A stretch of DNA of 64,000 bases from Cladosporium halotolerans (GCF_011745625.1 NW_027191489.1:1-64000), one strand, 5' to 3'; counted from the stretch's first letter, positions 7,218 through 28,814 are shown. The notes: a model not told the origin generated them from the letters alone. A program made the numbers and translations.

Positions 7218-7616
7218 AAGCTACCTCACCTACCTACGTAGGTACATGCTTCAGATTCAGAACACCACTGCAAGGCACCAACCTCAGGCACCCCCGCGGA
7301 ATGCCCTGATGCCACGCGCCTCAGGGTGCCGCTGCAGGGCCCGGCAAAGCTTCCCCGAGCGCCGAGGGGCAGCCAGCTGGAAGCTCCGCCGCTGCGTGGT
7401 GGCCGTGGCTCAGGTGGCTGCTGCGTGCTGCATGTGGGCTGCGGGCAAAAAAGCGCGAGCGCGCTCACGTCAAGCCAAACCAACCCGCCAAAGGTCAAAG
7501 CACACACCACACGCCGCCGCCAACACCGCCGCGCAACCCTCCTCACCACCCGACACATCTGGCTTTCGCGCCCGCGGCCGCTTTCCTATCTCCTCTATCG
7601 ACGTCCGGCCGCCGCG

Positions 7617-9365: not shown

Positions 9366-10207
9366 TTTCAGAAATAGATTCACGTAGACGACTTGCGCCG
9401 AATGGCTAATGGAAATGCAGATTTATGCTGGGTGACAGAGTTTGCCCCTGGTTGTGAAACATTCTGTTTCATCGTGTGCATGTACCTTCTCTCATAGAGG
9501 TTTGATTGCGTTGGCTGTTTTGGCTGCTCTTTGTCTCCATTCTGTACACGCGTAAGTGCCTTTTTCCTAGATGACCTCCCTGATGCTTCAGGTATACGTG
9601 CGCCGGCGACAAATTCAACATGCTGCAAGCTGACACGTTTTGTCGCCAGATGTCTGCTCGCCCTTTTACGATGGAACCCTCAATATAATTTGTGACATGT
9701 CGCCAGACCCAAGCGGGCGGCTAGCCCTAGGCCTGAAGCCTTTCTCACTGGTTGACTGGATGCAGCAGTGTAATTACAGCTACTTGCATACTTTCTGTTG
9801 ATTCGAAGGAGGGCTGCTAGGCTCCCACTCGCAAGCGCGACAGTGACTTCGCGACACCCTCGCTTCAAGTTCAAGTCGCACAGAGCACACGCTGCGCGCG
9901 CGCCTGCTCCCGCTGAGACGCGATGGCCTAATGTCGCAGGCAGCGCTTGAAGTCACCTCACATCTCCTCCACCTTCACACGCTGTGCCAAATCCTGGCCG
10001 ACGGGCACTGAGACATCCGCGTGACCCTGCGACTGCCTACTGCTCAACCTTGCCTCCTCTCTGCTCATACTGCACCGCGCTTCCGCTTCTTCTGCTCGAC
10101 AACCGCACCACCGCCTTCCATATCTCCAATCCCGCCGGCGCACTCTCCCCGCCGCACATCTCTTCGGCATCGCCAGGAGATTCTCGTCTGCCTCGAATAC
10201 CGCAAGC

Positions 10208-11341
10208 ATGCGCGCCGACTGTCTGCCTTTCGCCAGCATCGTCGTGCGCGTGAATGGGCAGGACGTTCAAGAGCATCAAACGGAACCGACCAGTGCCGAT
10301 AATGTCAAGACTGCAGTCACCTACATCGAAGCTGTTGATGGTGCTGCATTCGGGCTACATCTGATCCTCGAGAGAGGCTTTGCTTACACCGTCGACCATC
10401 TCATAATGCAAGTCTCTTTGGACGGCAAGTGGGTTACAGGGCGATTTGTCGAGTTGCAACGCCTTAAATACGGCCGGGAATGCTTGAACGTCACGAATGT
10501 CCACGAGACTGTAAATGGGGTCACCACTGCAAGGGACTTTCTATTTGCGACACATCAAACCAGTGAGTGTCTTGGGCGTGTCCGAGAGAGTATCTTGCTT
10601 ACACTCACTTCTTAGCGGACCAAAAGCTCGACAAAAATTTGTCCAAGGACGAATTTGCCAGGCTTGGCGAAGTGAAAGTCCATCTCTATCGATGCCGGAA
10701 AGGCAAGCACATATCTTCTTACGGGCGACTTGGGTTCACGGCAACTGGGAAGGACGGCATTCCCGAGAAGGCTTTGAAAGGTCGAGCTATTTCTCATCAC
10801 ACCGAGTGAGTTCTAAGCGTCAACCTCAAGAACTCGATGAAGCACGGAGTCTGATTATGGTTCTAGGCTCGGTCCTGCTAAACAAGCCACTGTCGGGGGG
10901 ATTTACGATGCATCCTATCCCTACGGCAGTGACCCGATCGCAACTTTCGTCTTCAAGTATCGTTCACACAGTATGTAAGGTGCATCCTCGAGAAGGTTTA
11001 CATGATACTGACCGTTATCAGAGGATCTGCAGGTAGAAGGCATCATCGAGCGCAGTCCGTCGCCTGTCCCGCTTGAGGATCGTGACCCAGAGACTCTGAC
11101 ACCGGAGGAGTTGCGTGAGCAGAATCGACTTCTTCGCGCCAGACAGGAGGCAATCAACAACATCAAGTCTGAAGTCAAGCAAGAAGCTCGCAAGCGCAAG
11201 CGCCAGCGCTCGGTGACTGTGGGCAGGGAGCAACATGATGATACCGATGAGGGAGACGAGGGCGATGTGACCTTTACAGGCGTGTCTGGCAGGCGCAAGG
11301 TGCCGAGGCCGGAGGACATAATTGACCTCATCGACGACTGA
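10208..11341 (+). CDS. DUF7918-like fungal protein, 4 exons
   Basis: Introns 10563-10615, 10806-10866 and 10971-11021 give a continuous frame with TYIEAVDGAAF, IPEKALKGRAISH, PIATFVFKYRS, LQVEGIIERSPSPVPLEDR, and a basic/acidic tail ending IIDLIDD. Confidence 0.8.
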
Positions 11342-12030: not shown

Positions 12031-13665
12031 ATGAAGGAGAACCAGAACCCAGCGTGGGCGACAGCACACCAGCCAAACGGCGTCAATGGAGCCATCAAGC
12101 CCGAGCACACGAACGGCAACGGCCATACACAGCAGCTGTTGCCGGATGCGCATCAGACACAAGGCAAGCCCTCAGACATGCTCCACGCCATCCAGCCGAT
12201 TGCGCGCCCACGGACTCCGAGCATCTCAGCCTCGAAAGAAGCCCGTGCCGCGGCCAGGAAGTACAAACACGCTTTCGCGGTACACGCCAGGAATCGCAGT
12301 TCTTGTCTGAGCCGCGACTTCACCGAGCCCGTTTCGCTCCAGGGTTTCAAAAACCTCGCTTTCGCAGTCCTCGCCTGCTCCATCCTCCGTCTCATGATCG
12401 AGAACTTCAAAAAGTACGGCATCCAAGTCACAATCTCCTCCAATGGTCCTTCGAGGAGTGATATTGTTTACGGCACCATCTTGTACATTTCAGTGCCCTG
12501 CCACCTGTTCGTCGCCTACGGCATTGAGCTCCTTGCGGCTTGGTATGCTCAAGGTGCCGTCGGCAGGGTAAAAAAGAGCGAGGCAAGAGACTACGACAAG
12601 CAGCTTGAGGCAGAAAGAAAGAGGTTGAAATCTCTCTGGTGGGTAATCGCTGTCCTGCATGGATTGAACGCAACATTCAACTTGCTAGTCTCGACCTTCG
12701 TGGTATACTGCTACATTCACAACCCTGGCATCGGCACCATCCACGAACTGCATGCAGTGATTGTCTGGCTGAAAGTCTGTTCGTACGCTTTCACCAACAG
12801 AGACTTGCGACACGGGTTTCTGAAGCCTGACCCGACCGGCATGACAATTCCGCCGCTCTACAAGACTTGTCCATACCCGCAGAACATCACTGTCTCGAAC
12901 CTGTGTTATTTCTGGTGGGCGCCCACTCTAGTCTATCAGCCAGCATATCCTCGCACAGATAAGATTCGCTGGGACTTCGTGGCAAAGCGCATCTGTGAAG
13001 CAATCCTGGCCTGCTTTATCATCTGGATCGCGTCAGCTCAATACGCCGTACCACTTTTGCAGAACAGTCTCTCTGACATCTCCCAATTGCATCTGGTCAA
13101 CCTACTTGAGCGCGTCCTCAAGCTTAGCACGATCAGTGTCATCTGCTGGCTGGCCGGCTTCTACGCTCTCTTTCAGGCGTCTCTCAATGCCCTCGCCGAG
13201 GTGATGAGGTTTGGTGACCGCGAATTCTACGGCGACTGGTGGAACTGCACCGACATCCGTACCTACTGGACAACCTGGAACAAACCCGTGTCCCAGTTCA
13301 TGAAACGTCACGTATACGCCCCACTGGTCGGGCGCGGCATGCACCCTGCTGCCGCGCAGATCTTGACCTTCATCTTTTCCGCCAGCCTGCACGAAATCCT
13401 TGTCGGCGTGCCGACGCACAACGTGCTCGGTCTGGCATTCATGGGAATGATGTTCCAGATCCCGCTGATTCTGCTAACGGACGTTTTCCGAAGGAGGGAG
13501 GGGTACTGGCCGAAGCTAATGGGAAATCTGATCTTCTGGTGTACGTTTTGCCTGGTCGGGCAGCCAGTGGCAGCGCTGGGTTATTATTTCGCGTGGCAGG
13601 CGAAGTATGGACAGTATCGGCCTGAGTATCCGGTCCTTTGGCCAGGTAGTGAGAAGGGCAGCTGA
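12031..13665 (+). CDS. MBOAT O-acyltransferase (DGAT1/ACAT-like diacylglycerol or sterol acyltransferase)
   Basis: Intronless 544 aa. RLMIENFKKYG, YFWWAPTLVYQPAYPR, FGDREFYGDWWN, WNKPVSQFMKRHVY, catalytic SASLHE. Confidence 0.93.
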   Translation: MKENQNPAWATAHQPNGVNGAIKPEHTNGNGHTQQLLPDAHQTQGKPSDMLHAIQPIARPRTPSISASKEARAAARKYKHAFAVHARNRSSCLSRDFTEPVSLQGFKNLAFAVLACSILRLMIENFKKYGIQVTISSNGPSRSDIVYGTILYISVPCHLFVAYGIELLAAWYAQGAVGRVKKSEARDYDKQLEAERKRLKSLWWVIAVLHGLNATFNLLVSTFVVYCYIHNPGIGTIHELHAVIVWLKVCSYAFTNRDLRHGFLKPDPTGMTIPPLYKTCPYPQNITVSNLCYFWWAPTLVYQPAYPRTDKIRWDFVAKRICEAILACFIIWIASAQYAVPLLQNSLSDISQLHLVNLLERVLKLSTISVICWLAGFYALFQASLNALAEVMRFGDREFYGDWWNCTDIRTYWTTWNKPVSQFMKRHVYAPLVGRGMHPAAAQILTFIFSASLHEILVGVPTHNVLGLAFMGMMFQIPLILLTDVFRRREGYWPKLMGNLIFWCTFCLVGQPVAALGYYFAWQAKYGQYRPEYPVLWPGSEKGS

Positions 13666-14096
13666 TGTTGTGGGAGATCGCGTCAATCTTCGTCCGTGAT
13701 CATAAAATTATATTCGCACGGCTCTCCGCATCATGTACTACGCATCACGGCTCTGTCCTCACTCTTCATTCAACATGGTTCTGTTATGCCGCCTTTCCAT
13801 GCCATCGACCTCGAGTACCCCAAGCACAAGTTGCAATCATTATCACTATAAAGTTACCACGATTTCCCCGGATTTCTTTTGTCTCTCGTGCTCCGCCGTT
13901 CTTCTTGCACTGCCCGAATTACCCCGCTTACGCGAGGATCGACTGCAGCCGGCTCCGAGGCGGCGCACGCCCACGTTTCTTATCACGAGGCTTATCTGCT
14001 CAACCCACCGGGGAACCGCACCAAGTACACCTCTACCAGCCATCCTGTCAACTTCATGCACTCTCTATCGCCCGCTGCATCTCGCGACGGATCGGC

Positions 14097-16512
14097 ATGA
14101 AGACGCATTCACGTACTCGAGGTATGGCTCCTTGCGTATTGACCACACAGAACGCCGAGCTAAAGGTTGTTGCAAGGCGGATGCATCACGTGCAAGCGAA
14201 AAGTAAGAACAATGCGCAGCCAGTCTGTTTTCCTCTTCGCTCACTGATCAAACACTTTGCAGCACATCAAGTGCGATGAGACGCGTCCACAATGCAAGAA
14301 TTGCGTTTCAAAGCAGATCACCTGTCCTGGCTATGTCAAACCTTTAGTCTGGAAGACAACTGTCAAACAAAATGTTCCATGCGATAGTGCGAAGAAACCT
14401 GAGGCAGTTCGTCGGCCTTATACTCGCAGTGGAGCAGAATGTCGCAGCATTTCACCAACTGTGCAGGAGTGCGAGAGGCCAGCTCTGGACGAGCAAACTC
14501 TACAACGGCAAAGCGACCAGGGCTCAGATACGGCATCCTCTTCAGATCAGGTTGTCTTGGATCTCAACGGCCAGCAAAATCCAGATTTTCAACTTTGCAA
14601 TGATGACTCGATCTCATCGGGAACTGTGATCGAAGATACGATAAATCTCCTCCCGCCGTCGAGGAAAAGTAAGACGCACTCAAAGCGGCTAGAAAGACTT
14701 CAACACGCTGACAGTCTTTCGCAACTTGACGTGATTCGGAATGATTTCTACCGAATTGAGGGATCACCCGTCTCTTTGAACTGTGCCGAGTCATCCGGGA
14801 GCCCAACCTTTACCGCCACTAGCAAGGGCATACCCGAACCGCCTTCCATAACAACATTCTCTACTCAAGATGGCATCGGTGACGCTATGTCGCTCGCCGT
14901 TTCTCAAATGCAGGTCCCATTTCCGCCATGCGATGACGCCGGTGGAAACGAACTCCCTCTATTCGTCAACGACAATGAGCAGCACCCACGAGCACCGTGG
15001 GACTTTGTATCCGCAGACGACTGCAGTTTAAAAATTACATCTCTCAATAACGGTCTATTGGACGGGATGACGAAGCACGACTTAACAATGCATTACTTTG
15101 ACTCGGTCTGTCAAATACTTTCATGTTTTGATTCGCATGAGAATCCATTCCGATACGACATACCCCGGGTAATGCTCACTTGTGATTATATTCACGACTG
15201 TGTCATTGCAATGTCGGCCGCTCACTTGGCGAATTCCCGGATGGGGATGGAGAGTACGGCTCTGAAGTATCAAGCCAGAGCAATGGCAGGGCTGTCGTTT
15301 GTCATACAGTCGATGCAAGCGCCTGCTTGCGCGGATGACGCCCAAATTGCATTATGCAGCTCTTATGACCGGTCCACTCGATACCAAGCACTTTTGACTG
15401 CCATGATGTTGGGTATAAGCTCGGTAAGTCAAAATTTCATGCCCTCCAGTCCTGCAATTCTTACTGTGACATAGGCTTGGTATGATCCTTCCGCGGCTAG
15501 CGTAACGCATCTGCTAGGCGCACGAACTTTATTCAAAGCTTGGCTACTTGACGAAGGAATTTGTGCCTGTACGGACGAATATCAGTTACTGAACCGGCAA
15601 CAAAGTTTCTTGGTGGGTGCCATGGCCTATCTAGAATGCCTCGCATCTTTCATCATTGATCAGCCATTCGAAGCCCTGGGATACTTGCGACAATTTGGTG
15701 CACTAGCTGAACGACAGCCAGTTTACCCTAACCCTTGGACTGGCGTGAGCACTCCGCTTTTTGTACACCTGGCCGAGACGGCAATCCTTATGAGGATGAA
15801 GCGAAAAACCAATGCAGTCCATCCTGTAGGGCCGCAGTCTAGATCCCATGCCGACGTATTGACTGGGCTTTTAACTCACGCATCGAGACTTTATCAGAAC
15901 ACACTTGCTCACTCTGCGCCCGCGGCTGCAATGGTAGAAGACACGAGAGACGCCAATACGCCGACTGAAGACCTCATAAGTATAGACAACATCCACCGCT
16001 TAGTGATTCTCATGGAGCTTGTGCAGGCCTTCCCAAATCTTGCAATGGAGAACGATCAATTCCACCGCGCAACCGTCAAGCTCAATCATGAAGCCAGTGA
16101 GATGGTCTTAGACTGCGCCATCGCCATTCTGACAGTCGTTTCCCGCCTTCCCGAAGCATCAGGGACGAATGTGATGCTCTCAATCCCTCTCATCGCAGCC
16201 GGCAGTGCCCTGCAAGCCCTACCGACCACGCCAAATAACCCTACTGTACCACCAAGCCTGCGAAGTAGTATCTCCGCAATCACTCATTCCGAGCCCATAC
16301 TGCAGCACTGGCGCGAACGAACCCAGTCCCGACTTGAGCGTACGCTCTCCCGAGTTGGAGTGGCTCCGCTACGTTGGGCAAATCAATTGGTGCAAGAAGT
16401 CTGGCGGCGCGCGGATGTGGTAGTATCAGAGGAGGGTTACCCGACGTCGCCCGGAGCATTGCATTGGATGGATATCATGATTGAGGGGAAGTATGAGACG
16501 CTTTTCGGATGA
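14097..16512 (+). CDS. Zn(II)2Cys6 transcription factor with Fungal_trans_2-type C-terminal domain, 4 exons
   Basis: Introns 14122-14176, 14203-14262 and 15424-15474 assemble RTRGGCITCKRKHIKCDETRPQCKNCVSKQITCPGY. Also FDSHENPFR, AMSAAHL, PNPWTGVS, HWMDIMIEGKYETLFG. Confidence 0.88.
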
Positions 16513-17323
16513 GAAAAGTGGTAATGATGTGGACGGTCGGTCAAACCCCCACGAGATGGCATGTGAGATGGGCATCGTAGTCTGATTGACCAGGGCAATA
16601 GCGCGTTCTATTCAGCATGCTGATGATAAGCTTGCGCATAGATATCCTCAAATCGGAAAGCCATCTTTTGCCCGTCTTAATATTAATGAGTTAGCCAATG
16701 TCTGAGTCATCAGCCTGAGGCAATATCAAACAATACCCGAGGTCGCTGCAAACAGCCCAGTATCTCAGCCGCGGTCACTACGTCTATGGTTTCCGCTTTC
16801 GGAAAGGATAGGCGCGCCACGGAAGCAGGCGGGACTCAAGTCAATGTTGCCTGCCGCCATCTTGAACAAGTGATCTAGTCCATCGACTGAGTTCTCCTTT
16901 CTTGTGAGTCAGGTGATGTTTCCGTCATCCTTCTCATACTTGAAGGGTGTATGATTGTGTGGAAGTGACGAGGCGGTTTATAATGATGGCAAGAACTTGA
17001 CTCGGCCATGGACCCAATTCGGAATCGACTTCACAACATCTGCCCTCATGCCTTACTATCGCAAACCTTTTGCAAAGCATTTCGAGGTGAAATTCGAGCC
17101 TGGAGGTCCGTGACCTTAATCTGACTATGCATGGAACGACTCTGAATAAGCTTCGGGTGTCTCCATGTTTGGACTGCAGTAGATGTTCCTCGTAACATGT
17201 GAATGAACCATAGACGAATATCGAACAACTATCAAAATACAAATGCAATCTAGATTTTAACACTCGCTTCCTCGAATCCCGTGTAAATCATTACACCACA
17301 TCTGTTCTGCGGTCATATTTGTC

Positions 17324-17794
17324 TCATAGTTTCCCCATCGGTCGGGCCGCGCATTTGAAGCAAACGCCATAGTCGCTCGATGAGAACTTGACTGTGCTTC
17401 CTCTGTGGATGAAGAAGCTATCACCTGGTCCTAGAGTTCGCTTATGACCAGTTTCATCGCTCAGAGTGACGGTCCCTAAAGTACAGTGAGCCACCCATAC
17501 ACAGAATGTTCTCAAGATTATTCGCGATTACCTTCCCAAACAACGCCGCTTTCATCGTACGAATGCACCCCTGGCCCTACCTCGGGGCCCTTCTCGATGC
17601 GAAACCAAATGCCGGCGAGACGGTCCAGGTTGGCTTCTGCTTTGGTGCCGAAAATATCGCCTGGGAAATGTCGTATCAGCCTGGTCTTCGCAATGTGCAA
17701 GCAGATAGCGGTAGAGCATACGGAAGAAGACATAATCCCCAACGGCTTCAGGGATTTTGAAGCGTTCTGTGGCTGAATGGTATTCGACGACCAT
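17324..17794 (-). CDS. Small cupin, EutQ/DUF861-like (117 aa), 3 exons
   Basis: Introns 17661-17721 and 17476-17531: MVVEYHSATERFKIPE...DIFGT...GIWFRIEKG...YDESGVVWEGTVTLSDETG...LGPGDSFFIHRGSTVKFSS...RPMGKL. Confidence 0.8.
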
Positions 17795-18418
17795 AGCGGC
17801 AATAAGATTGGCTGTAATACAGCATCAGATGCTGCAATCTTAAAAATACTCGCACCTCAAGACAGGCGACGACATACTTGTACAATGAGAGCCAATGTGG
17901 GGTTCAAAGCAAGGTTGTCCGAAATGTGGACCATGTCGTGTCATTTGATTCTCGGAAACTTCCAAAAGTGGTAAATCTTGCCGTAAGGATTGGCGATCTC
18001 CGTGGTTGGTCATTAACGTCGAGAGCATCGTAAGTCAATGGCGTCGCTCGGAATTGGTTGGTTGAGCTCAGGGAGGGTAGATAGGCGTGATACAAATGTT
18101 GTTACTGGAATGTTGCAAGATAGATTCTCGTTCACTATGTGAGAGGGAATTGTCTTGATCCATTTCGATAATGTGCTTTTGAAAATCGGTACCTTACCTC
18201 TGCGAAAGGTTCAGCCATCTCATGATATCCCGAAAGTCGTGGTGTTTGTGCCGACATTCCTGGGCCGTGATCTAGGGCAAATATTTGTGCAGTGGAAGAC
18301 CCATGGTGGACGGTTTCAACAGCGAACAAGACGGATACGCAGCACACGAGAGAGATACGGAATCTCAACCATCATATGCCAAGCTCTATATGCAAATGCT
18401 GACGTGCAGATCGATTCT

Positions 18419-20026
18419 TCAGATCTTTGCGGTCAGGCCCGCATGGTCCTGCTCTAAGGCGAGCTTCACTTTCGCAGCAGCCCTAGTCCCCTGCTCGATG
18501 GCCCCGTCAATGAAACCCCTCCACCCATTGGCCCAGTCCGCACTTGCCATAAAAATCATACCATGAGGCTCCTGCAAGACCTTCAAGTTCCTTGTCGTCA
18601 TTCCGGGGCCTGCACAGTACCACGCTCCTTTAGCGTACGGATCCTCCGACCAGCAGTGGGAAAGATAACCTTTGACATTTCCGTCGGGCTGGAGCTTCTT
18701 GAACTCAGAAATGACTTTGGCGTTGCTGGTAAAGTCGCGTAGTCTTCCATTGTAACCGAAGCACATTGCGTATGTATTCTTTTGCGAAGGCGACTGCGTA
18801 CCTGCTATCGGTCAGCGGTTGATCGAAGCCAATCATTGGTGAAGAGATCTTTACCATTGTGATCCTTCAAGCCGAATACAAAGTCGCTTGCGTTGCTGTC
18901 TGCAGTATTTGCAAACCAGTTTCCCTGCTTTTCGTCAATGGCGAAATGATACTTTTCACCGACGTTGATGTGGCCTTCATTGATGGCGTCGCGCTTCATT
19001 GGAGGCAACGGCGGGTCAAATTCGACATCGCCGAGACAGTTCAATGGGATGGTACAGATCACCCGGCTAGCGTTGTAGCTAGAGCCGTCCGTGCAGCTGA
19101 CCGTGACCCGAGAAGCAGCAGTCTGATCTAAAGAAGAGACTACTTTGTGCAAGATGCGATCGCCACGGTATTGGCTCAGAGCATGCCGTGCGAGATTAGT
19201 CATACCGCCGTTGCCAAGTTTGAACGCAGCAGCTGCGTCGTACATTGTCGGCAGGCTGTAACCTCCTAAAGCAAACCAGCGCAATGCATCTGTGTATGCG
19301 ATATCGGACGGTGTCGCACTCCCGAATGAGTTCGTGTGGGCAGCGAAAAGGTCTTTATCCTCTTTTGGCATGTCGAGCTGATCGAGACGATTTTGAACGC
19401 TCATGAGGTCGAACTTCATCCACGGCTGGGATCGCGAAGGGTCGTGTGGGTACGGCATCAGCTCTCGGGGTGTCATGCCATCGATACTGAAGAGCTTCTC
19501 GGCGACCTCGGCCAACTTCGCGTTGTATCCTCCGATATCGTCCAAGCGCTGCACAGAAGAATTTTGGGGTTTGTATAGGACAAAATCCATATCTGTCGTC
19601 CCTGCTGATGTCTTCAGATCTTTGACCAAGTCATGCCGGTGCATTTCGGCATAGACATGTGGCTGGCTCCTGCCGATAATGGTCAGCCACCTATCTCATG
19701 TCCGCAAACAATGGATCGAATCACCAATGAACATATGTCCCACCCATCTCGAACTCTTCACCCCATGCTTTCGCAGTCCAAGTACGACCGCCGATGCGAT
19801 CGCGTGCTTCGATCAAAAGTACGCGCAGGTTGCGGTCGAGTGCAAGATCACGAGCAGCAACCAGGCCCGCAAAGCCAGCGCCAATCACGATCACATCGTA
19901 CGAGCTTCTTGTGTTGGGAGAGCTCGAGACCACAGCATCTGTCGGCAGACCACTGAACGACGGGCCCGCGGAATCGAATTGGTAGCCGTCCGTCGTGCGA
20001 GTTGTCTGTGAGTTGCGTGCCGACAT
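18419..20026 (-). CDS. Flavin amine oxidase, MAO-N-like, 3 exons
   Basis: Introns 19670-19724 and 18802-18854. DGYQF N-terminus, [63 protein letters not shown] (W/F aromatic cage as in Aspergillus MAO-N). Ends AKI. Confidence 0.92.
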
Positions 20027-20584
20027 CGTGTCGAAGACTGAACGAGAAAAAAGCCAACTGGTATTAGAGTGACTTCAGATACGTAATTTCCGCAGCCAGA
20101 AATCGGTTTCTTTACATATTGTCCACGGCCTTGCAATCATCGTGGCACTGTTCATGTCGACATGACTCGCGTCGGCGCCGATGCCGTGGGGCCTACGGGT
20201 CAAGTAGCCGCCTTCGGCCATGACAGCCGGCCGCTACGCCTGTTTCGTTTAGCATAGCCGGGGCCACGCCTAGACTCGCGTCGCTGGATGCCGCAGTTGC
20301 AGACGGTGATAAGCCTCGAGCCCCATGCGGGGAAATCGACAAGATAAGGTACGCCAAACCGCGACTCGAACATGCCATCACAATCTCGTCGACATAGATG
20401 CGGGCAGCCTACCTTGTCAGCTGTCCTGACATACAATGGCTGCCGCGAGATTGGCTGGCGATAGCTGGAGGTTGCATCGAAGTCTATATCTCAACTCGCC
20501 GCCCAACACATAAAACGCTACACACATCCAAATGAATCTACACCACTCCCACTCTCTCGCACCGACCCTTACTTCCGAGACACT
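20027..20584. promoter_or_regulatory. Divergent promoter of amine oxidase and permease, with GATAAG, SYGGRG and repeated GACTCGCGTCG motifs
   Basis: GATAAG at 20308-20313 and 20343-20348. GACTCGCGTCG at 20164-20174 and 20273-20283. Several SYGGRG hexamers and CGG/CCG triplets. Confidence 0.45.
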
Positions 20585-22636
20585 ATGCCAGTGGAGATGT
20601 ATGGCGACGAAGACATTCAGCATGAGCCTCTCGGCCCTTATCCCGCGAGCAACAAACCACTAAAAGACCTCAAAGACCTCACAGTTTTCCCTTCTTCGAA
20701 ACGTTCGTTATCCTGAAAGCCACTCCAGCACCATCCCATCCATTCTTGAAGACTGACTGATCAACACAGAGTCAAGCTCGTTTTCGGAGCATGCCCAGAA
20801 AGACGTCGAGCCATGCGATCAAGACAGCGTGCACGGCAACTACGACTCCCATGTCACCCGACACATTGGAATGCTCGAGATCGTTTCGATCGGATGGAGC
20901 ATTTGCAACAGCTGGGTCGGCGTCTTGACGACGTTCACTTTCGTCATCAATCAGGGAGGATCTCCAACACTTCTTTTTGGGCTTCCCGTCGTCTTTCTCT
21001 TCTACGGCTGCATTGTCTGCACTCTAGGAGAGCTTGCTAGTGCCTACCCTTCAGCTGGTGGCCAGTAAGTCATGACGCGAGCAGTACAATATCCAGCTGA
21101 TCAACTACTTAATCGGGCATTAGGTATTACTGGACCGCCATCCTCGCACCGAGGCCGTTTGCAAAAGCTTTGGTAAGTGAATAGTTTTTATGTTCCATCA
21201 GTATTACTTGCTTACCAAGGCCTCTCCCAGAGTTACACATGTGGCCTGATCAATGTATTTGCATGGATCGCTCTCGCCGCCGGCGTCGGTGTCATCATCC
21301 CACAGATCCTCCTAGCAATCGTCGTCCACTACGACACGACCTACGCCCCGCAGGCATGGCACATTTTCCTCATTTACCAAGGAGCATCTGCTTGTTGTCT
21401 GCTACACAACATTTTCACACTCCGAAGCACAATGTGGATCTTCAACTTCATCTGTAGGTAGGCCACAGTCGAATACAAAGCCCAATGGCTAACCGCCTGA
21501 AACATAGTCGCCTTGTCGGTAGCAACCTTCGTAATTGTCACAGTCACCTGCCTCACACGGGCTCCTGGGTTCCAGTCTAACCAATCGGTCTGGATCACGT
21601 TCACCAACCGAAGCGGCTGGAGCAGCGATGGCGTCGCCTTCCTGGTGGGCATGCTGTCGCCCGGATACATGTATGCCGGCCTTGACGGCGCAATCCATCT
21701 GGCCGAAGAAAGCAAAAATGCCTCAGTGGCCGTGCCGCGGGCCCTTATGAGTACCTGGATCATTGGTTCCTTGACATCGATCATTGTGTCGATTGCAGTG
21801 ATGTACAGTGCACAGGATTTTGAGGCAATCGCGACGACTCCAACAGGGTATTATCGCGTTTCACTATTTATAAAAGCTGCAACTGATGAATGAGTTGTGA
21901 CAGGCTCCCGATCTTCGAACTCTTCCGTCAAGCCATGCGATCTGACGCTGCAGCTGTTACAACATTAGCCGTCATGTTGGCCGCAGGAATAATGGCTCTT
22001 GCAGGATGCCAGCAGGTACGCTTTCTTGTAACGATCAGACACAGCTCGAACGACATTACTCACTGATGACCACAGACTGCTTCGAGATTGACATGGGCAT
22101 TCGCTCGTGACAAAGGATTCATCGGATCCTCGAAACTCTCCCAAGTCAACAGCAAGTGGGATGTCCCGGTTTGGGCTCTTTGCGCCAATGCGTTCGTCAT
22201 CTTTTTGATCGGCTGCGTATACCTGGGCTCCTCGACTGCATTCAATGCTTTCATTGGCACCGGCGTGATTCTCCAGCTCATTACGTTCGCGTTTCCCGCT
22301 GCCCTCCTCATCGCGAGAGGTAGATCAGCCCGATTCTTACCAGCGACACGAAAGTTCAAAGTGCCATCAGCACTCGGCTGGGTAGCCAACATCTTCACGA
22401 TTGGCTTTGCCTTGGTATGCACAATCTTCTGGAATTTACCTGCGCAGCTTCCCGTGGAGCCAACGAACATGAGTAAGGGAAAGACACTCGGAGCGCTTCT
22501 GCCTTGAAACTGACAAGTACCAGATTATTCCTCTGCTGTGATTGGCATCATGGGTATCTTCATTCTCGTCAATTGGTTTTTGTGGGCTAGGAAGCATTTC
22601 GTGAGGCCAAACATACAGATCCTCGCCGGAATCTAG
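20585..22636 (+). CDS. APC-superfamily amino acid/amine permease (choline/GABA permease-like), multi-exon
   Basis: IGWSICNSW, LGELASAYPSAGGQYYW, GLDGAIHLAEE, SRLTWAFARDKG, PVEPTNMNYSSAV; stop TAG 22634-22636. The first exon (20585-20702) is inferred and less certain. Confidence 0.88.
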
Positions 22637-23167
22637 CAGCTCAACTAAGACTTCGAAATCACTGAGTGCATAGGGAAAGAAAACACGAGTAACATGTGGA
22701 TACGCAGTAAAAAGCAAGTGTTTATATGTATAAGTGTCGTTCTTCGAAAGACCGAGGGCAAGAAGGCCCCGAGATCGTTGCGTGCTTCGCGTCCAGCTGT
22801 CAGCTGTCAAGGAGATTCCAGTCGTCCCACAGCAGAGAAGAAGGTCCAGGGAAAATTGAGATATTTTCCGGGATCAGGCGATGATACTTGTATGGTAACA
22901 AGAGCAGACTGTGCGCGATTTGACTAAAATCTGGCAGAACAAAATGCAAGTGTGGCAAATTGATGCCCCCGGGCGGAAGTTTGGGAGGCCACGGAGGCGT
23001 CAGCCGGCCGCGGGGAAGAACAGCGGCCCCCTCCAAAGACCTCGGATGCTGCCCTGCAGCGTATCACATGCTCTATTTGCATTGTCATTCCGAGGCTATA
23101 TATCATGCTTTCGCGTCTCTGGCTCCGACCGGGTGCCGGTCTGCGAACAGTGAGATGCTCATCGACA

Positions 23168-23627
23168 ATGGCGCCTTCATACGTGAAACGGGTGACGCTG
23201 TTCAAAGTACCCGAGGAAGAGCACATTGATCAGGCATGCCGTCCCGCGGCCACGACGACATGTCTCATGCACTGACTCTTCAGGCACAGGTGCTGCAAGC
23301 ATACGAAGTTCTCAGGCAGAGCGCCAAACGGGTATGTTGAAGTGAGGCTGGGATGCCCATGATTGCTGTGACGCTAACACGCTGTCACCACAGGATGGCA
23401 AACCGTACATCATATCCAACGCTGCTCGCAAAGTCCTGAACGCATCTTCTCCTCTCAGTGAAGGCTACACTATCATGTCGCAGTCCATCTTCAAGGATCA
23501 CAGTGACCACGACTTTTACGACAAGGAGTGCCCGGCTCATAAGGAGCTCAAGAAGACGACCAGCAGGGTTCGGACCGGTGTCATGACCGTAGTCACCGAA
23601 GGCGAATGGCCGGAAGCTAAATTGTGA
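23168..23627 (+). CDS. Stress-responsive alpha/beta barrel (Dabb) protein, about 113 aa, 3 exons, ends AKL
   Basis: Exons 23168-23233, 23290-23331 and 23394-23627: MAPSYVKRVTLFKVPEEEHIDQVLQAYEVLRQSAKRDGKPYI...SEGYT...FKDHSDHDFYDKECPAHKELK...WPEAKL. Not in the ORF track. Confidence 0.82.
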
Positions 23628-23878
23628 GCTGTTGTTATCCGAGAGCGACCATTGCCTATACAAAGTGTCTTTGGATCTTTCGGGCCATGTACCACATACA
23701 GCGTACACCGCGGCATGTAGCCATCTTTTTGCTGTCATCAAACTTGCAGTGTCATTCGCACATCAAACTATCGTAGCAGCCTGCGTCATTCTTGGGCCCC
23801 CTTCACAATTGTTTGTTCGATATTATCAGTCCGTAATTTTCTACTCCAACCAGCTTGCACAGGAATGACCGAGCCACC

Positions 23879-24712
23879 ATGAGCGCCCAGATCACCCAGC
23901 AAGACCGGATAGCCGTCGCCACGCATCTGCGCCAATGGTCGCTCACCCGAAACGTTCCTCAAATCCAAATTGATCGCATGATCAATGACTTACTTGCTGG
24001 CCATCACGACGAGCAGATTCAGCGAGCAGCAGCTGCGAGCCAACCTCCCTCAACGGAGCAGCAACCGCCAATTGCGAGCCCCGTACCAACATTCAGCTTT
24101 CAAACGCCATTCGGGACGTTCCTCGTACCACAAACTTTAGCACCGGTTGCGATGCCCCATGTACCTCCACTCTTCTCGGTGCCAGCAGTAATTGCGTCAA
24201 ATCAAAGGCCGAGCCTGACATTCCTATCGACTGTCCCAGCACCAGTAACGCTGGTGGCAAGAACAACGGTTCCTGGCAGACGTGAGTCCATCCAGCATAG
24301 CACATCCTACTCCGGTCAGCAAGGCAACATGAGCTTCTCATATAGCTCAAGCAGCACCTCAACGACCTTCCCAGCCTATGTCCATCATGTAATCCGCCCC
24401 ACACCCACGGTCTCCCCGATGCACGCACTCCTACCCGCTCCCTCCATTGCTCCAGCCCCAATACCCCTGGCACCGGCGATTCAGCCGATACCTCAGGTTC
24501 TTCCGCCGCCTCGCATCGCGACGGCGGCTCCTGTTCCCTCTCAAGCGCCATCGCTCCCGGTGCCTGGACTGCAAGTCTCGGCCACCAATAATGCAGCCTT
24601 GCCTCAAGCGCCGCAGAACCCCAGACTAGCTCAGGCGTTTGGACAGCAGCTCAGGCAGCAGACATATTTCAGCAGTCCTCCTGGCCTGCCGGACAGGAGT
24701 GTCCGCCGGTGA
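23879..24712 (+). CDS. Hypothetical Pro/Ser/Gln-rich low-complexity protein
   Basis: About 277 open codons from ATG 23879. Helical-looking N-terminus followed by a Pro-rich tail. No domain recognised and the 3' end is uncertain. Confidence 0.45.
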   Translation: MSAQITQQDRIAVATHLRQWSLTRNVPQIQIDRMINDLLAGHHDEQIQRAAAASQPPSTEQQPPIASPVPTFSFQTPFGTFLVPQTLAPVAMPHVPPLFSVPAVIASNQRPSLTFLSTVPAPVTLVARTTVPGRRESIQHSTSYSGQQGNMSFSYSSSSTSTTFPAYVHHVIRPTPTVSPMHALLPAPSIAPAPIPLAPAIQPIPQVLPPPRIATAAPVPSQAPSLPVPGLQVSATNNAALPQAPQNPRLAQAFGQQLRQQTYFSSPPGLPDRSVRR

Positions 24713-25247: not shown

Positions 25248-27560
25248 TCACAAGACTCCCGAGCCCGCCGCCTTCGGTGTTGCACTGATCGAGCCGTGCG
25301 CGCTGTCGCCTTTGAGGCTTCCGTTCTCCGGAGAAGGCTGCTTGGTAATCTCCTCCTCTTTTTCCACGTCTCCACCATCTCCACTCTCGGTAGTCTCGTT
25401 CATTTCGTCGGGGTTCTGCGTGACCATGGGAGCGTACGGGATATGGCCTTCGTTGCGGCGGTGCGGAGGAATGAAGACGTTAAACCAGCGCGGGACCATA
25501 AAGCCTAGCAGAAAAATGAGGAGCACGACGTGGCCGACGCCGAAGCCAAGAATGTGCAGCGGATTGGTCTTGCCGGAGAGTGGAGTGCCTGACGCGACAA
25601 AATTGGGGTATGAAAAGGAGAAGACGATCGCCAAAACGGGACCGGAGACATATTTGACCAGGGGACCCCAGAAGACAGGGATGTTCCAGTTTTTGCCTGT
25701 GCCAACGATCACGTTCAAGTCGCGGCGAAGTTGCTCGCCCTAAGATGCTTATGTCAGTATATCTCCCTCGACTACATCAATGGTAGAAACTCACGGAATA
25801 GAAGACGAGGTAGAACACCTTCGAGAGGAAGACGTTCGACCCAAACTTCCACGGAGCGCGAATATCAGGCGTCTTCGCAAGGGCCAGTGCAAGAGCGGTG
25901 AAGACAATGAAGATTGCAAAACCAGTAACAGCGCCTGCCCAAGCACTCACGCCTTGGCCGATGGCGCACCCGAGGATCTGGCCAGCAAAGAAGGCAATTT
26001 GGTAGAGGATGAAGGACACCTTCCCGACCTGGCCTTCGACATCTCTCCATCGGTAGACCGTGGTGGAGGTAACGCATTCGGTCCAGACCACAAACACAAG
26101 GGCAACATTGTTAGTCCAGACATCGACTCCATCCAGCAGCCAATATCCGAATTCTGTGCAGTAAGGCAGCGAAAGCGCGAGGGAGAGAAGCGTGAGCGCC
26201 GTCACGACGATGGGGCGAGAATACTTGATGCCGGAGTCCATGGTCAAGGTGACAACTGCGTCAAGCATGGCAAAGGCGGACGAGAAACCGAGTGTCATCA
26301 ATGTAAAGAATAGCAAGACCGCCCAGAAGTTGGCGGCGGGCATCTGTTCGATCGCAGTCGGCAACGTCTGGAAACCGATTGAAAAGCCTCCGACGTCTGG
26401 CACGTCGGGTCCGGGGAACATTCTCGTGAATCCGACAACGCCGTACACGGCGAAGGCGGCAATGTTCTCAAAAGCGACGTTGCTGCCAACGATTGCCATT
26501 GCATCCACAACGGCATTGGAATGCTTCCGATTGTAGGAGGCGTACGAAGTAAAGTAGCCGAAACCAACACCGGTGGAGAAGAAGACTTGACCACATGCAG
26601 TCTGCCAGACTTCACCCTTCGCAAGCTCGGAGCCTCTCCAGGTGGCCCAGAAGTATTTGATACCCTCGCCGGCGTTTTCCAGAGAGACCGATCGCCCGAC
26701 TAGGATAATTGTGACCACGATGGGGAGGCCTTCCGCAACATTAGTCGTGTTTCGCTCAACACTGCCAATCATTCACTTACCCATGGTCCAGTACACAACC
26801 TTTCCTGTCAAGCCGACGCCCTGCGATCGCAAGTTAGAATTGCGCTCTTCCCTTCAATGTAGAATGATCGTACCCTGAAAATACAAATCCAGACCAGGAA
26901 CCAGGTGAAAACCATCCATCCAGTGGTTTCGCCGCTGCGAGCCATTGTCAGCAAACGTTCGAGCACGCAGAGAGCCGGGCTCGGGTCTTGAGCGGCTGTG
27001 ACCTACACCATGCCAACGCCGGGAAATTGAACATAGCCAGTATCATTTCCACCCTCCCCAGGCGGGATCGGATCCTGATTCGCGACTACGTTGGTCATGA
27101 AGTAGTCGGCGGCATCGTCCCGCCAAGGCAGAGGATTGATGAACGACCGGCGGAAGTACGACATGATCCAGGCAAGATTGACGGCAAAATACGGCCCCAC
27201 CACAAATCCAACGTAGATCAGATTAAGTCCCGTGGCCTTCAGGCGGTGATGCATGGTGTTGTACGCGACGACAGAGCCTCCCCGGTACGCTTGGCCAATG
27301 GCGATCTCAAGCATGAGCACGGGAATAGCGATGAGGAAGACGGTCATCAGATACGGGATGAACCATTGTAAACCATAGTTGTTGTACACCTGGGATGGGT
27401 ATCGGATCAAATTTCCCATACCGGCGCAACCTCCCATTGCGGCCAGCAGAAAGGACGCGCGCGACGGCCATTGATCGCGGCCATCAGCAGACTTGTCGGG
27501 CGGCGGCGCAAGCCACCTGCCGACCTTCTTGATGCCGTTCATCGCGGTTGCCATTTCCAA
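25248..27560 (-). CDS. Sodium:neurotransmitter symporter (SLC6/NSS/SNF family), 5 exons
   Basis: DGRDQWPSRASFLLAAMGGCAGMGNLIRYP, LEIAIGQ, WQTACGQVFFSTGVGFG, YASYN, LGFSSAF. Four GT-AG introns join the ORF pieces. Start may be 27542. Confidence 0.92.
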
Positions 27561-28814
27561 TCGCGGGCACGGTCACAATGCAGCCGCAGGTCCAGATCCA
27601 GGTACGTGGGGAAAAGATCGAGCCAAAAAGAGTAAAAGTCCAGACACGTCCGTCAAGGCACCACGAGCAGTTGTGCTTAAATGCGACGGGCGAGCCTGCC
27701 TCTGCGTGGCCATCGTCAGAGCGTAGCTTGGCGACTTACCGAGACCCGGTGTTCTTCTGTTCTTTCTTGCTGACCGGCGGAGCTGCCGACACCCACGACA
27801 GCGGGCCAGGCGGGATCTTCAGCATGGTTGCTTCCGCTGAAATCACGCTGTCGCTGTGGCAAACCTATTGGAAGTAGATCTAGCTGGGTTGAGAGAGGCC
27901 TAGTTCCGACGAAGGAGCGCTAACAATCAAGACGCGAAATGCCATGCAGAAGCCATGGCAAGATGACCTCAAGCCAAGGACAAATGGCACCTGGTGGTGT
28001 TGGGATGCCCAGCGCGGCCGGAGCAGTGTCCTTTGCGTGCCGCTCCAGCAAGATCTCACATCTCGTCAAGACCGGCAATTACCCGCGACTCGCCACCATG
28101 CAGGCCAGGACCAGACGGATGATGATCGTTTGTTGAAGTTGGCAATGGTATGTCAAAGGGTTGTCGGAGATGGCAGCCGTAAGAGCAGCACCAAGTCTCT
28201 AGCCTCTTGGATGCTTGGCACGGCCAGAGCGCCCCCGGCACAGCCAAGTCCGCCCTGCCGTGTCCGCGGCGCATCTGCCCTTGTGCCTCTCTGCCAGCCC
28301 TACCAGATAGACTTGCGAGCTTAATGCACCCACGACCGGCGTCAGTGGCGCTTCGTGCACACAGGACAATCCTAGAAACTCTTCGACGCAGGATTTTGGA
28401 AGTTTAGGGTTTTGATTGTAGATCTTCCAGGCCGTGGTGGGTTGTCGCCGGGGCTCGCCCGACGAAACATCCAAGGAGTCCGAGGCCTTCACAACACTAC
28501 CATCCCAGGAACCACCTGCAAGGGTGCAAGGGTGCCCATGGCCATGCTGTGGCCAGAATATCGAGCGCACATGTCGAAGTCCATGCCGATGAAGCCTCGA
28601 CCAGAGCGGATCGCCTAATGCTTGTCGGCACCGAAGACCTGGCTTGCGGCCAGTGATCAACCACGACTGAGTGCTCAAGCCACGTCTTGTCGAGAAGAAA
28701 GATTCATAAATATCGTTATGTGATCAATGTACTAATTGCGATCCCCAATAAAAGCATCCCATCATACTGTTATTATTGAACCGCCTTTGTATCCATTGTG
28801 GTTCAACAACCAGT

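What the first reader, a model, noticed from the sequence alone, without database searches (positions are those of the whole stretch)
14097..23627. Candidate self-regulated, peroxisome-compartmentalised amine catabolism cluster (TF - EutQ-like cupin - MAO-N-like oxidase - amine permease - Dabb protein)
Seen: five contiguous genes, with the oxidase and permease divergent. The three soluble non-regulatory proteins end in AKI (oxidase), GKL (cupin) and AKL (Dabb). Known: MAO-N-type enzymes release aldehyde, NH3 and H2O2 and carry PTS1. AKL is canonical; AKI and GKL are weaker variants. Bacterial EutQ belongs to ethanolamine-utilisation microcompartment loci, and this permease class carries choline, ethanolamine or GABA. 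Inference: an import-oxidise-process pathway in which cupin and Dabb proteins of unknown function act on the reactive aldehyde/imine inside the peroxisome, a functional analogue of the bacterial microcompartment. I do not recognise this combination as a described cluster.
Basis: partly seen in the sequence, partly recalled or inferred. Interest (0 to 1): 0.75.

Follow-up and report, generated by a model that had tools for sequence, protein, structure and literature searches.

The report
Conserved fungal amine oxidase gene cluster
A regulator, a small cupin protein, a flavin amine oxidase and an amine-type permease have stayed next to each other in several orders of Dothideomycete fungi and probably import and oxidise an unidentified amine in the peroxisome, while the fifth gene of the original finding (the Dabb protein) looks like a local neighbour and not a member.

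Summary
The five genes are real.

The cluster idea holds for four genes.
- Cupin and oxidase are neighbours, by consecutive GenBank accessions, in Hortaea, three Bipolaris species and Curvularia, and in one metagenome contig that also keeps the divergent permease.
- Orthologues of the transcription factor sit beside them in Hortaea, Curvularia, Bipolaris and Aureobasidium.
- PTS1-like ends are conserved: 10 of 10 cupin orthologues, and 38 of 56 (strict motif) or 53 of 56 (broad motif) oxidase relatives.
- In 10 of 80 bacterial loci with MAO-N-like oxidases a Cupin_3 gene also lies nearby, in four of them directly downstream.

Two parts of the interpretation fail.
- The Dabb protein has a different species distribution and never shares a contig with the cluster elsewhere. 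It carries a conserved presequence-like N-terminal extension, and its C-terminus is often not PTS1-like.
- The cupin scores below Pfam's EutQ threshold, so the microcompartment analogy rests on a name.

The substrate, the compartment, control by the transcription factor and the cupin's chemistry are all inferred. My literature searches found no description. Verdict: a new variant of a known kind, of moderate interest.

The parts
14097..16512 (+). Zn2Cys6 transcription factor, 749 aa; exons 14097-14121, 14177-14202, 14263-15422, 15474-16512
   Evidence: Pfam Zn_clus and Fungal_trans_2. The two short 5' introns are my prediction and restore a complete six-cysteine motif. Intron 15423-15473 is confirmed by an RNA joint. 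Orthologues lie beside the cupin/oxidase genes in other genera.
17324..17794 (-). Small cupin, 117 aa, ends GKL; exons 17794-17721, 17659-17531, 17474-17324
   Evidence: Identical to P0002. Both introns are seen as RNA joints. Cupin_2 scores 29.4 and Cupin_3 27.4 bits, both above cut-off; EutQ scores 17.8, below its 21-bit cut-off. 10 of 10 orthologues end [AG][KR]L.
18419..20026 (-). MAO-N-like flavin amine oxidase, 499 aa, ends AKI; exons 20026-19724, 19668-18852, 18798-18419
   Evidence: Pfam Amino_oxidase and NAD_binding_8. Both introns are seen as RNA joints. The orthologue P0018 matches MAO-N (2VVL/2VVM) at E 1e-78 over nearly its full length. Family C-termini are PTS1-like.
20027..20584 (.). 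558-bp divergent intergenic region between oxidase and permease (presumed shared promoter)
   Evidence: Gene models. The same divergent arrangement is in L002. I found no shared motif.
20585..22636 (+). APC-superfamily permease (AA_permease_2), 548 aa, 8 exons
   Evidence: Pfam. All seven introns are seen as RNA joints. A 53%-identical permease sits in the same divergent position in L002.
23105..23627 (+). Dabb (stress-responsive A/B barrel) protein, ends AKL; 134 aa from ATG 23105 or 113 aa from ATG 23168; exons to 23233, 23290-23330, 23393-23627. Probably a neighbour, not a cluster member
   Evidence: Pfam Dabb on orthologues. RNA joints include a GC-AG intron at 23234-23289. Its species range and contig lengths differ from those of the cupin and oxidase.

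Best explanation
This is a conserved Dothideomycete catabolic cluster of four genes: a Zn2Cys6 regulator, a 117-aa Cupin_3-type protein, an MAO-N-like flavin amine oxidase and a divergently transcribed APC permease. Most likely the permease takes up an exogenous amine. The oxidase then converts it in the peroxisome to an imine/aldehyde, ammonium and H2O2. The co-targeted cupin carries out or assists a step tied to the oxidase reaction; my best guess is handling of the imine/carbinolamine or the aldehyde product. The adjacent regulator switches the genes on. Shown here: gene structures, protein families, transcription of all genes in a relative, conserved gene linkage, conserved PTS1-like C-termini, and recurrence of oxidase + Cupin_3 pairs in bacteria. 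Inferred: substrate class, peroxisomal location, regulation by the TF, and the cupin's chemistry. The Dabb gene is a lineage-specific neighbour whose product is more likely mitochondrial or dual-targeted.
For: Linkage by consecutive GenBank accessions, cupin|oxidase: Hortaea werneckii KAI7081983|84, KAI6855889|90, KAI6937327|26 and KAI7319509|10; Bipolaris zeicola EUC30524|25; B. sorokiniana EMD68567|68; B. oryzae EUC49662|63; Curvularia kusanoi KAF2993858|59. TF orthologues (40-58% identity): C. kusanoi KAF2993857, next to the cupin; H. werneckii KAI6855891, next to the oxidase; B. zeicola EUC30528, three accessions on and on the same 60,822-nt contig; Aureobasidium melanogenum KAG9674974, next to oxidase KAG9674973. 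Of 13 cupin homologues, 8 share an identical longest-contig length with an oxidase hit and 1 more with a TF hit. The other 4 are the protein identical to the window's own, two on ~1-kb contigs, and one without contig data. Metagenome contig L002 reads cupin 10001-10465 (+), oxidase 12544-10994 (-), permease 13243 to the contig end (+). PTS1: cupin 10 of 10 [AG][KR]L; oxidase family 38 of 56 strict and 53 of 56 broad. -AKI and -PKL were shown to be sufficient for peroxisomal import in Histoplasma (PMC13343957, passages read). MAO-N is the best solved relative. RNA contigs exist for all five genes. Bacteria: of 80 loci with MAO-N-like oxidases, 4 have Cupin_3 directly downstream and 1 within 0.8 kb, and 10 of 80 have one within 6 kb. 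About 1.7 would be expected from 34 Cupin_3 matches in 21 Mb. L025 and L076 carry permease, TetR, oxidase, Cupin_3 and aldehyde dehydrogenase together.
Against: There are no expression data across conditions, so co-induction and TF dependence are untested. Permease linkage outside close relatives rests on one contig (L002). In that contig the cupin is inverted and no orthologous TF lies within 10 kb on the cupin side. GKL lies outside the experimentally derived Histoplasma consensus [ASPHC][KR][LI]. No aldehyde dehydrogenase or catalase gene lies in the cluster. I found no shared promoter motif. The bacterial Cupin_3 proteins are only 21-27% identical to the fungal cupin. They sit beside oxidases at 2-3 or more separate places in the tree, so common ancestry of the pairing is not shown. 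The baseline comes from genomes chosen because they carry such a cupin. The 10 bacterial loci are not independent, and 5 of them trained the HMM. Accession order is a proxy for gene order, because I could not read those fungal genomes.
Confidence: 0.6

Rival explanations
1. One reading: all five genes form one unit, and the Dabb protein acts with the cupin on the aldehyde/imine inside the peroxisome, as a functional analogue of the bacterial ethanolamine microcompartment.
For: The Dabb gene lies about 470 bp downstream of the permease on the same strand. It ends in AKL and is transcribed in the same RNA run. 12 of 16 relatives with an intact C-terminus end in [KR]L, and -PKL is a working PTS1 in Histoplasma. 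The arrangement is collinear in a ~93% relative (X2 record 9).
Against: Dabb homologues come from Mycosphaerellales/Capnodiales genera (Dothistroma, Cercospora, Zasmidium, Ramularia and others) that gave no cupin hit. Bipolaris, Curvularia and Hortaea, which have the cupin-oxidase pair, gave no Dabb hit. No Dabb hit shares a contig length with any cupin, oxidase or TF hit. 13 of 19 homologues with a modelled N-terminus, and the window itself (ATG 23105), carry an arginine/serine-rich, acid-poor extension of presequence type. 4 of 16 end in PEL. The cupin fails the EutQ gathering score. EutQ itself links cargo to the shell rather than acting on aldehyde (PMC12487888, abstract).
Confidence: 0.12
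2. The four genes are one unit, but its role is detoxification or modification of a specific host- or competitor-derived amine (an alkaloid or an amine-bearing toxin), not nitrogen assimilation.
For: Many carriers are plant-associated (Bipolaris, Curvularia, Parastagonospora, Zymoseptoria, Aureobasidium, Cladosporium). Solved relatives of the oxidase include nicotine- and pseudooxynicotine-type enzymes (5TTJ, 7U6L, 7E7H, 6CR0; my reading of which entries are NicA2 and Pnao is recalled). No aldehyde dehydrogenase is encoded to carry the carbon further.
Against: The halophilic, non-plant Hortaea also keeps the unit. An import permease suits assimilation better than self-protection. No substrate information was obtained.
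Confidence: 0.18
3. Chance neighbourhood: unrelated genes happen to lie side by side, and the PTS1-like ends are coincidental.
For: Fungal genomes are gene-dense. The Dabb adjacency does look fortuitous. No regulatory motif was found.
Against: Linkage of TF, cupin and oxidase is kept across Cladosporium, Hortaea, Aureobasidium and three Pleosporales genera, with rearranged order and orientation. The C-terminal tripeptides vary only within PTS1-compatible forms. The pairing also occurs in bacteria.
Confidence: 0.05

Closest known systems
Aspergillus niger monoamine oxidase N (MAO-N; PDB 2VVM/2VVL/3ZDN)
   Same: It is the best solved relative of the orthologue P0018 (E 1e-78, residues 12-483 against 4-482). 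It has the same Amino_oxidase fold and N-terminal dinucleotide-binding motif. The Trp and Phe that align with MAO-N positions 430 and 466 (my count on the alignment) are invariant in alignment A2; their role as the aromatic cage is recalled. The C-terminus is PTS1-like. MAO-N's ARL end and peroxisomal location are recalled, not checked here.
   Different: The window enzyme belongs to a separate, well-supported Dothideomycete subclade (9 rows, support 100). It is 41-51% identical to its Aspergillus, Penicillium and Fusarium relatives. No cupin, TF or permease partnership has been described for MAO-N as far as my searches show.
Bacterial amine-catabolic operons built around MAO-family flavoenzymes
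   Same: They share the module logic of regulator + APC permease + MAO-family enzyme + Cupin_3, with aldehyde dehydrogenase added in L025 and L076. Cupin_3 lies directly downstream of the oxidase in 4 of 80 loci.
   Different: The bacterial enzymes are 31-38% identical. 10 of 80 have a cytochrome c gene directly downstream instead, which suggests dehydrogenases and not oxidases (the NicA2-CycN precedent is recalled). They have no organelle targeting. The fungal cluster lacks the aldehyde dehydrogenase. The bacterial cupins are only 21-27% identical to the fungal one.
EutQ of the ethanolamine-utilisation microcompartment
   Same: It is a small single-domain cupin of about 115-150 aa. The nearest clusters by protein-language-model features are short bacterial 'EutQ family' proteins (score 0.96-0.97). 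There are weak sequence matches to 4AXO and 2PYT (E 0.02 and 0.46).
   Different: The Pfam EutQ score (17.8 bits) is below the 21-bit cut-off. There are no shell proteins and no ethanolamine ammonia-lyase. EutQ's shown role is tying cargo to the shell (PMC12487888, abstract), which has no counterpart in a membrane-bound peroxisome.
Peroxisomal amine oxidation in yeasts growing on amines as nitrogen source
   Same: An H2O2-producing amine oxidase is placed in the peroxisome and released ammonium is assimilated (recalled textbook knowledge, not checked here).
   Different: Those enzymes are, as I recall, copper amine oxidases and are not described as part of a TF-cupin-permease cluster.
Yeast carnitine acetyltransferase Cat2 type of dual targeting (for the Dabb protein only)
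   Same: An N-terminal presequence, an in-frame internal Met just before the folded domain, and a C-terminal AKL (window: ATGs at 23105 and 23168; homologues). The Cat2 mechanism is recalled.
   Different: Nothing is known about the localisation or function of this Dabb family. 4 of 16 relatives end in PEL.

Membership tests
Flavin amine oxidase, MAO-N branch (Pfam PF01593) | Amino_oxidase domain over the whole protein with an N-terminal dinucleotide (FAD) binding motif | tested here: met
   All three exons hit PF01593 (E 9e-12, 2e-16, 4e-12) and exon 1 hits NAD_binding_8. Orthologue P0018 scores 183.8 bits over residues 52-482.
Flavin amine oxidase, MAO-N branch (Pfam PF01593) | Closest solved structure is MAO-N, aligned over the full length | tested here: met
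   P0018 against 2VVL/2VVM, E 1e-78, residues 12-483 against 4-482. Next come 7E7H and 7U6L (E 1e-67 to 1e-66).
Flavin amine oxidase, MAO-N branch (Pfam PF01593) | Amine oxidase activity with O2 as acceptor and H2O2 as product | not testable with these tools
   Needs an enzyme assay. 10 of 80 bacterial relatives have a cytochrome c gene directly downstream, so the acceptor cannot be assumed from homology alone.
PTS1-targeted peroxisomal matrix protein | C-terminal tripeptide that fits an experimentally derived fungal consensus | tested here: inconclusive
   The oxidase's AKI fits [ASPHC][KR][LI] and was shown sufficient in Histoplasma. The Dabb's AKL fits. The cupin's GKL does not.
PTS1-targeted peroxisomal matrix protein | The tripeptide is conserved as PTS1-compatible among orthologues while the preceding linker varies | tested here: met
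   Met for the oxidase family: 38 of 56 strict, 53 of 56 broad. Met for the cupin: 10 of 10 [AG][KR]L. Not met for the Dabb: PKL 5, PEL 4, AKL 3, PRL 2, TKL 1, ERL 1 of 16.
PTS1-targeted peroxisomal matrix protein | Pex5-dependent localisation in peroxisomes | not testable with these tools
   Needs fluorescent fusions or proteomics.
EutQ (Pfam PF06249) | Score at or above Pfam's gathering threshold | tested here: not met
   P0002 scores 17.8 bits and P0007 19.6 bits against a 21-bit cut-off. P0009 has no EutQ hit.
EutQ (Pfam PF06249) | Encoded in a microcompartment locus with shell proteins and ethanolamine ammonia-lyase | tested here: not met
   No such families appear among the ORFs of 130 aa or more that I sent to Pfam from window positions 1-37582.
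Cupin_3 / DUF861 (Pfam PF05899) | Score at or above the gathering threshold; small beta-barrel | tested here: met
   P0002 scores 27.4 bits (cut-off 23.5) and Cupin_2 29.4 bits (cut-off 27.2). The AF2 model is an all-beta core, pLDDT 64-82 for residues 41-100. Foldseek's top rows are small cupins, but none reaches E <= 0.001.
Dabb (Pfam PF07876) | Score at or above the gathering threshold | tested here: met
   The window's last exon alone scores 17.8 bits, below 25. Full-length orthologues P0123 (31.9) and P0124 (29.8) pass.
Zn2Cys6 fungal transcription factor | Six-cysteine binuclear cluster plus a fungal TF middle domain | tested here: met
   Zn_clus 25.5 bits (cut-off 21) and Fungal_trans_2 in both large exons. 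The spliced N-terminus shows C-X2-C-X6-C-X6-C-X2-C-X6-C. The two 5' introns are predicted, not RNA-confirmed.
Amino acid/choline/GABA-type (ACT) branch of APC permeases | Membership in that subfamily rather than APC in general | tested here: inconclusive
   Only AA_permease_2 is established. The Atlas gives generic 'amino acid permease' clusters.
Fungal catabolic gene cluster | Gene linkage conserved beyond close relatives | tested here: met
   TF, cupin and oxidase in Hortaea, Curvularia and Bipolaris; TF and oxidase in Aureobasidium (no cupin homologue was found there); permease in L002. Not met for the Dabb.
Fungal catabolic gene cluster | Co-induction by the substrate and dependence on the cluster TF | not testable with these tools
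   Only presence of transcripts in one run was seen. Contig depths cannot rank genes.

The most novel reading that the evidence does not exclude
Small Cupin_3 proteins are a dedicated and so far unrecognised partner of MAO-family flavin amine oxidases/dehydrogenases, recruited repeatedly in bacteria, archaea and fungi. In fungi the partner is co-targeted with the oxidase to the peroxisome. It would catalyse or chaperone a step treated as spontaneous in textbooks, namely release of ammonia and aldehyde from the imine/carbinolamine product, or capture of the reactive aldehyde.
Probability: 0.3. Interest if true: 0.65.

Novelty: new variant of a known kind. Interest (0 to 1): 0.48.

Why it matters
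Fungal nitrogen-source clusters and peroxisomal amine oxidases are well known. A conserved cluster that ties an MAO-N-type oxidase to a dedicated small cupin, a regulator and a permease has not been described in the papers I could search. The same oxidase-cupin pairing in bacteria, and in three earlier notes of this scan, suggests an overlooked accessory function in flavin-dependent amine oxidation. MAO-N is widely used as an engineered biocatalyst (listing only), so a natural helper protein could be useful. The cluster also gives a tractable four-gene system for finding the substrate in plant-associated and halotolerant Dothideomycetes.

Tried and rejected
- Complex prediction of Hortaea oxidase P0018 with cupin P0165 gave no verdict (score 0.00, controls not run). 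It says nothing either way.
- The first AF2 model of the cupin (6 sequences) was unusable, pLDDT 46. The second (18 sequences) reached pLDDT 60. Foldseek against the PDB gave no match at E <= 0.001, only small cupins at E 0.01-0.15.
- Promoter comparison (TF upstream, cupin upstream, oxidase-permease spacer, and the same regions of L002) found no shared CGG/CCG-type site and no shared k-mer above shuffled expectation.
- No whole genome is held for the window, so paralogue and genome-wide synteny tests were impossible.
- The look-up of sequencing runs listed no holder on record as RNA. Run X3 nevertheless proved to be spliced. Contig depths were not used to rank genes.
- A scan of bacterial genomes with cupin-derived patterns found no relative. 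The oxidase-derived scan was used instead.
- The Atlas search for the permease exon gave only generic amino-acid-permease clusters.
- Gene identifiers of orthologues appear in no searchable paper.
- Earlier-findings look-ups by place, by relatives and by sequence gave nothing.
- I first modelled the cupin with a wrong start (ATG 17733). This was corrected from P0002 and the RNA joints.


Full report
**What is there**

The window is fungal. Stop-to-stop ORFs and Pfam show five adjacent genes between 14097 and 23627:
- a Zn2Cys6/Fungal_trans_2 transcription factor (+ strand);
- a small cupin (- strand);
- a flavin amine oxidase (- strand);
- an AA_permease_2 transporter (+ strand, divergent from the oxidase across 558 bp);
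- a Dabb-domain protein (+ strand).

I built intron-exon models by hand and assembled them in scripts. The spliced cupin is letter-for-letter the protein annotated as Cladosporium halotolerans WHR41_07919 (P0002), which corrected my first, wrong start.

Contigs of public runs were laid on 13600-24000. Run X3, about 95% identical, holds spliced RNA contigs with joints at 14 of my 16 introns:
- one in the TF;
- two in the cupin;
- two in the oxidase;
- all seven in the permease;
- both in the Dabb gene, one of them a GC-AG intron (23234-23289).

The first two short TF introns are predictions only. They do restore a perfect six-cysteine motif. The proteins end in AKI (oxidase), GKL (cupin) and AKL (Dabb).

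**Is it a cluster?**

I could not read fungal genomes directly, since none is held. I therefore used three proxies.

*Shared contig lengths.* Of 13 cupin homologues:
- 8 have exactly the same longest-contig length as an oxidase homologue. These are 60,822, 143,227, 61,577, 42,703, 11,636, 10,951, 9,702 and 8,759 nt;
- 1 more shares its length (29,994 nt) with a TF homologue;
- the remaining 4 are the protein identical to the window's own, two on ~1-kb contigs, and one without contig data.

*Consecutive GenBank accessions.*
- Cupin and oxidase are neighbours in Hortaea werneckii (four assemblies), Bipolaris zeicola, B. sorokiniana, B. oryzae and Curvularia kusanoi.
- I searched with the TF's last exon and looked up the best representatives. 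This placed TF orthologues next to the cupin in Curvularia (KAF2993857/58/59) and next to the oxidase in Hortaea (KAI6855889/90/91).
- In B. zeicola the TF lies three accessions beyond the oxidase, on the same contig. In Aureobasidium melanogenum it is next to the oxidase (KAG9674973/74).

*A readable contig.* Metagenome contig L002 has cupin 54%, oxidase about 62% and permease 53% identical to the window's. It reads cupin(+), oxidase(-), permease(+), with the same divergent oxidase-permease pair. Two differences from the window:
- the cupin is inverted;
- the genes beyond the cupin are unrelated (zf_UBZ, an SDR, a PF04082-type TF, a monooxygenase).

So TF, cupin and oxidase are linked across Cladosporium, Hortaea, Aureobasidium and Pleosporales despite rearrangements. 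The permease is linked in the one distant case I could read. In a FastTree of 135 oxidases, all six fungal rows known to be cupin-linked fall in one Dothideomycete subclade of nine rows (support 100).

**The Dabb gene does not belong**

- Its 45 homologues come from Dothistroma, Cercospora, Zasmidium, Ramularia, Sphaerulina, Neohortaea, Extremus and relatives. These genera gave no cupin hit.
- Conversely, Hortaea, Bipolaris and Curvularia gave no Dabb hit.
- No Dabb hit shares a contig length with any cupin, oxidase or TF hit.
- The reading frame extends upstream to an ATG at 23105, adding 21 residues rich in Arg, Ser and Leu and free of acidic residues.
- 13 of the 19 homologues whose N-terminus is modelled have a comparable extension. 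It often ends in Ser/Thr followed by an internal Met a few residues before the first strand.
- Among 16 intact C-termini, the tripeptides are PKL 5, PEL 4, AKL 3 (all close relatives of the window), PRL 2, TKL 1 and ERL 1.

This is the layout of a mitochondrial or dual-targeted protein, not of a dedicated peroxisomal one. The word-based searches have limited sensitivity, so the absence of hits is weak evidence on its own.

**Peroxisomal targeting**

- Ten of ten full-length cupin orthologues end in [AG][KR]L: GKL 6, AKL 3, ARL 1.
- Of the 104 oxidase hits, 56 are at least 470 aa long. Of these, 38 end in [SAC][KRH][LM] and 53 fit a broader pattern. AKL (22) and ARL (11) dominate, and AKI, ARI, SRI and SKI also occur. 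The preceding residues vary freely.
- In Histoplasma, -AKI, -HKL and -PKL fused to a fluorescent protein were sufficient for peroxisomal import. The derived consensus is [A/S/P/H/C][K/R][L/I] (PMC13343957, passages read).
- AKI and AKL fit this consensus. GKL does not. Its alternation with AKL and ARL among orthologues nevertheless argues for selection on a PTS1.
- Localisation itself is untested.

**What the proteins are**

- The oxidase orthologue P0018 matches MAO-N structures at E 1e-78 over nearly its full length. It matches bacterial nicotine-pathway-type amine oxidases/dehydrogenases next.
- The cupin passes the Cupin_2 and Cupin_3 thresholds but not EutQ (17.8 bits against 21).
- Its best solved sequence relative is an uncharacterised DUF861 bicupin (3MYX, E 1e-6). 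EutQ structures match only at E 0.02-0.46.
- Protein-language-model features place it near short bacterial 'EutQ family' cupins. This is a lead, not membership.
- Real EutQ ties cargo to the microcompartment shell (PMC12487888, abstract). The microcompartment analogy therefore has no mechanistic basis here.

**A wider pattern**

Scanning one genome per bacterial species with oxidase-derived patterns returned 80 loci with oxidases 31-38% identical.
- An HMM built from the fungal cupins alone picked small ORFs right beside five of these oxidases.
- Pfam confirmed Cupin_3 directly downstream in L025, L033, L038 and L076, and 0.8 kb away in L072.
- A combined HMM found such an ORF within 6 kb in 10 of 80 loci; five of them had trained it.
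- About 1.7 would be expected from 34 Cupin_3 matches in five of these genomes, 21 Mb in total. That baseline is rough and biased.
- L025 and L076 encode APC permease, TetR regulator, oxidase, Cupin_3, aldehyde dehydrogenase, FolD, PurU and ETF. This is the same logic as the fungal cluster.
- On the tree the bacterial cupin-linked oxidases need at least 2-3 changes. The bacterial cupins are only 21-27% identical to the fungal one. This is therefore recurrence, not shown common descent.
- Three earlier notes of this scan independently describe small cupin + flavin amine oxidase pairs in an Amylibacter lineage, an archaeon and a Neisseria. These are unchecked AI notes and count as leads only.

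**How it most likely works**

The permease imports an amine. The PTS1-bearing oxidase converts it in the peroxisome to an imine/aldehyde, ammonium and H2O2. The co-targeted cupin acts on or with that step. The neighbouring Zn2Cys6 factor controls the genes. The substrate, regulation, compartment and cupin chemistry are all inferences.

Against a complete pathway, no aldehyde dehydrogenase or catalase is encoded nearby. The flanks are housekeeping or unrelated genes: TCP-1, MBOAT, an SNF-family transporter, glycerate kinase, an MFS transporter and NOC3.

**Novelty**

Full-text searches found no description of this cluster or of a cupin partner for amine oxidases. The searches covered:
- monoamine oxidase + cupin + cluster + peroxisome;
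- MAO-N + peroxisome;
- orthologue identifiers;
- DUF861 + amine oxidase;
- PF05899, Cupin_3 and DUF861.

Only listings and abstracts were seen for those searches. Subscription journals are not covered. I rate it a new variant of a known kind, namely fungal catabolic clusters and peroxisomal amine oxidation, of moderate interest. Most of the interest lies in the conserved cupin.

Noticed in passing
window 23105-23627: The Dabb protein has a presequence-like N-terminal extension, an in-frame internal Met (23168) just before the folded domain, and a C-terminal AKL. Many homologues show the same layout. This suggests two isoforms with mitochondrial and peroxisomal/cytosolic destinations. The RNA contig of run X3 seems to begin between the two ATGs, but its 5' end is not reliable.
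   Followed up: partly
window 23234-23289: A GC-AG intron (donor GCATGC) in the Dabb gene. It is supported by an RNA joint once the ambiguous cut is shifted by 3 bases.
   Followed up: yes
window 25248-27572 (- strand): A sodium:neurotransmitter symporter (SNF, PF00209) family transporter lies two genes beyond the Dabb gene. Whether this second amine-type transporter belongs to the neighbourhood elsewhere was not tested.
   Followed up: no
window 23837-24712 (+ strand): A 291-codon open frame rich in Pro, Ser and Ala, with no Pfam match, lies between the Dabb gene and the SNF transporter.
   Followed up: no
L018, L034, L036, L044, L049, L053, L055, L060, L065, L077 (about 7215-7790 in each): 10 of 80 bacterial MAO-N-like genes are followed directly by a cytochrome c gene. 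This fits flavin amine dehydrogenases that pass electrons to cytochrome c and not to O2. 7 of the 10 lie in one 21-row clade of the tree.
   Followed up: partly
L025 468-12988 and L076 471-13098: A Rhizobiales cluster: PaaX-like regulator, chemoreceptor, APC permease, TetR/BetI-type regulator, MAO-family oxidase, Cupin_3, aldehyde dehydrogenase, FolD, PurU and ETF alpha/beta. The one-carbon genes suggest an N-methylated amine substrate.
   Followed up: partly
G002 contig C3, about 2.56-2.74 Mb (genome behind L038): About 9 of this genome's 14 Cupin_3 matches fall within roughly 180 kb around the oxidase locus, next to PQQ alcohol dehydrogenases. This may be a large catabolic island.
   Followed up: no
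window 13600-24000 against run X2: A run labelled metatranscriptomic holds an unspliced 23,222-nt contig, 90-95% identical, that spans the whole stretch with all introns. It therefore carries DNA of a close relative, and the locus is collinear in it.
   Followed up: yes
P0219 and P0074 (Aspergillus undulatus): A 35%-identical TF homologue and a 43%-identical amine oxidase of A. undulatus share a longest-contig length of 204,031 nt. This hints that TF-oxidase linkage may reach beyond Dothideomycetes. Their distance on the contig is unknown.
   Followed up: no
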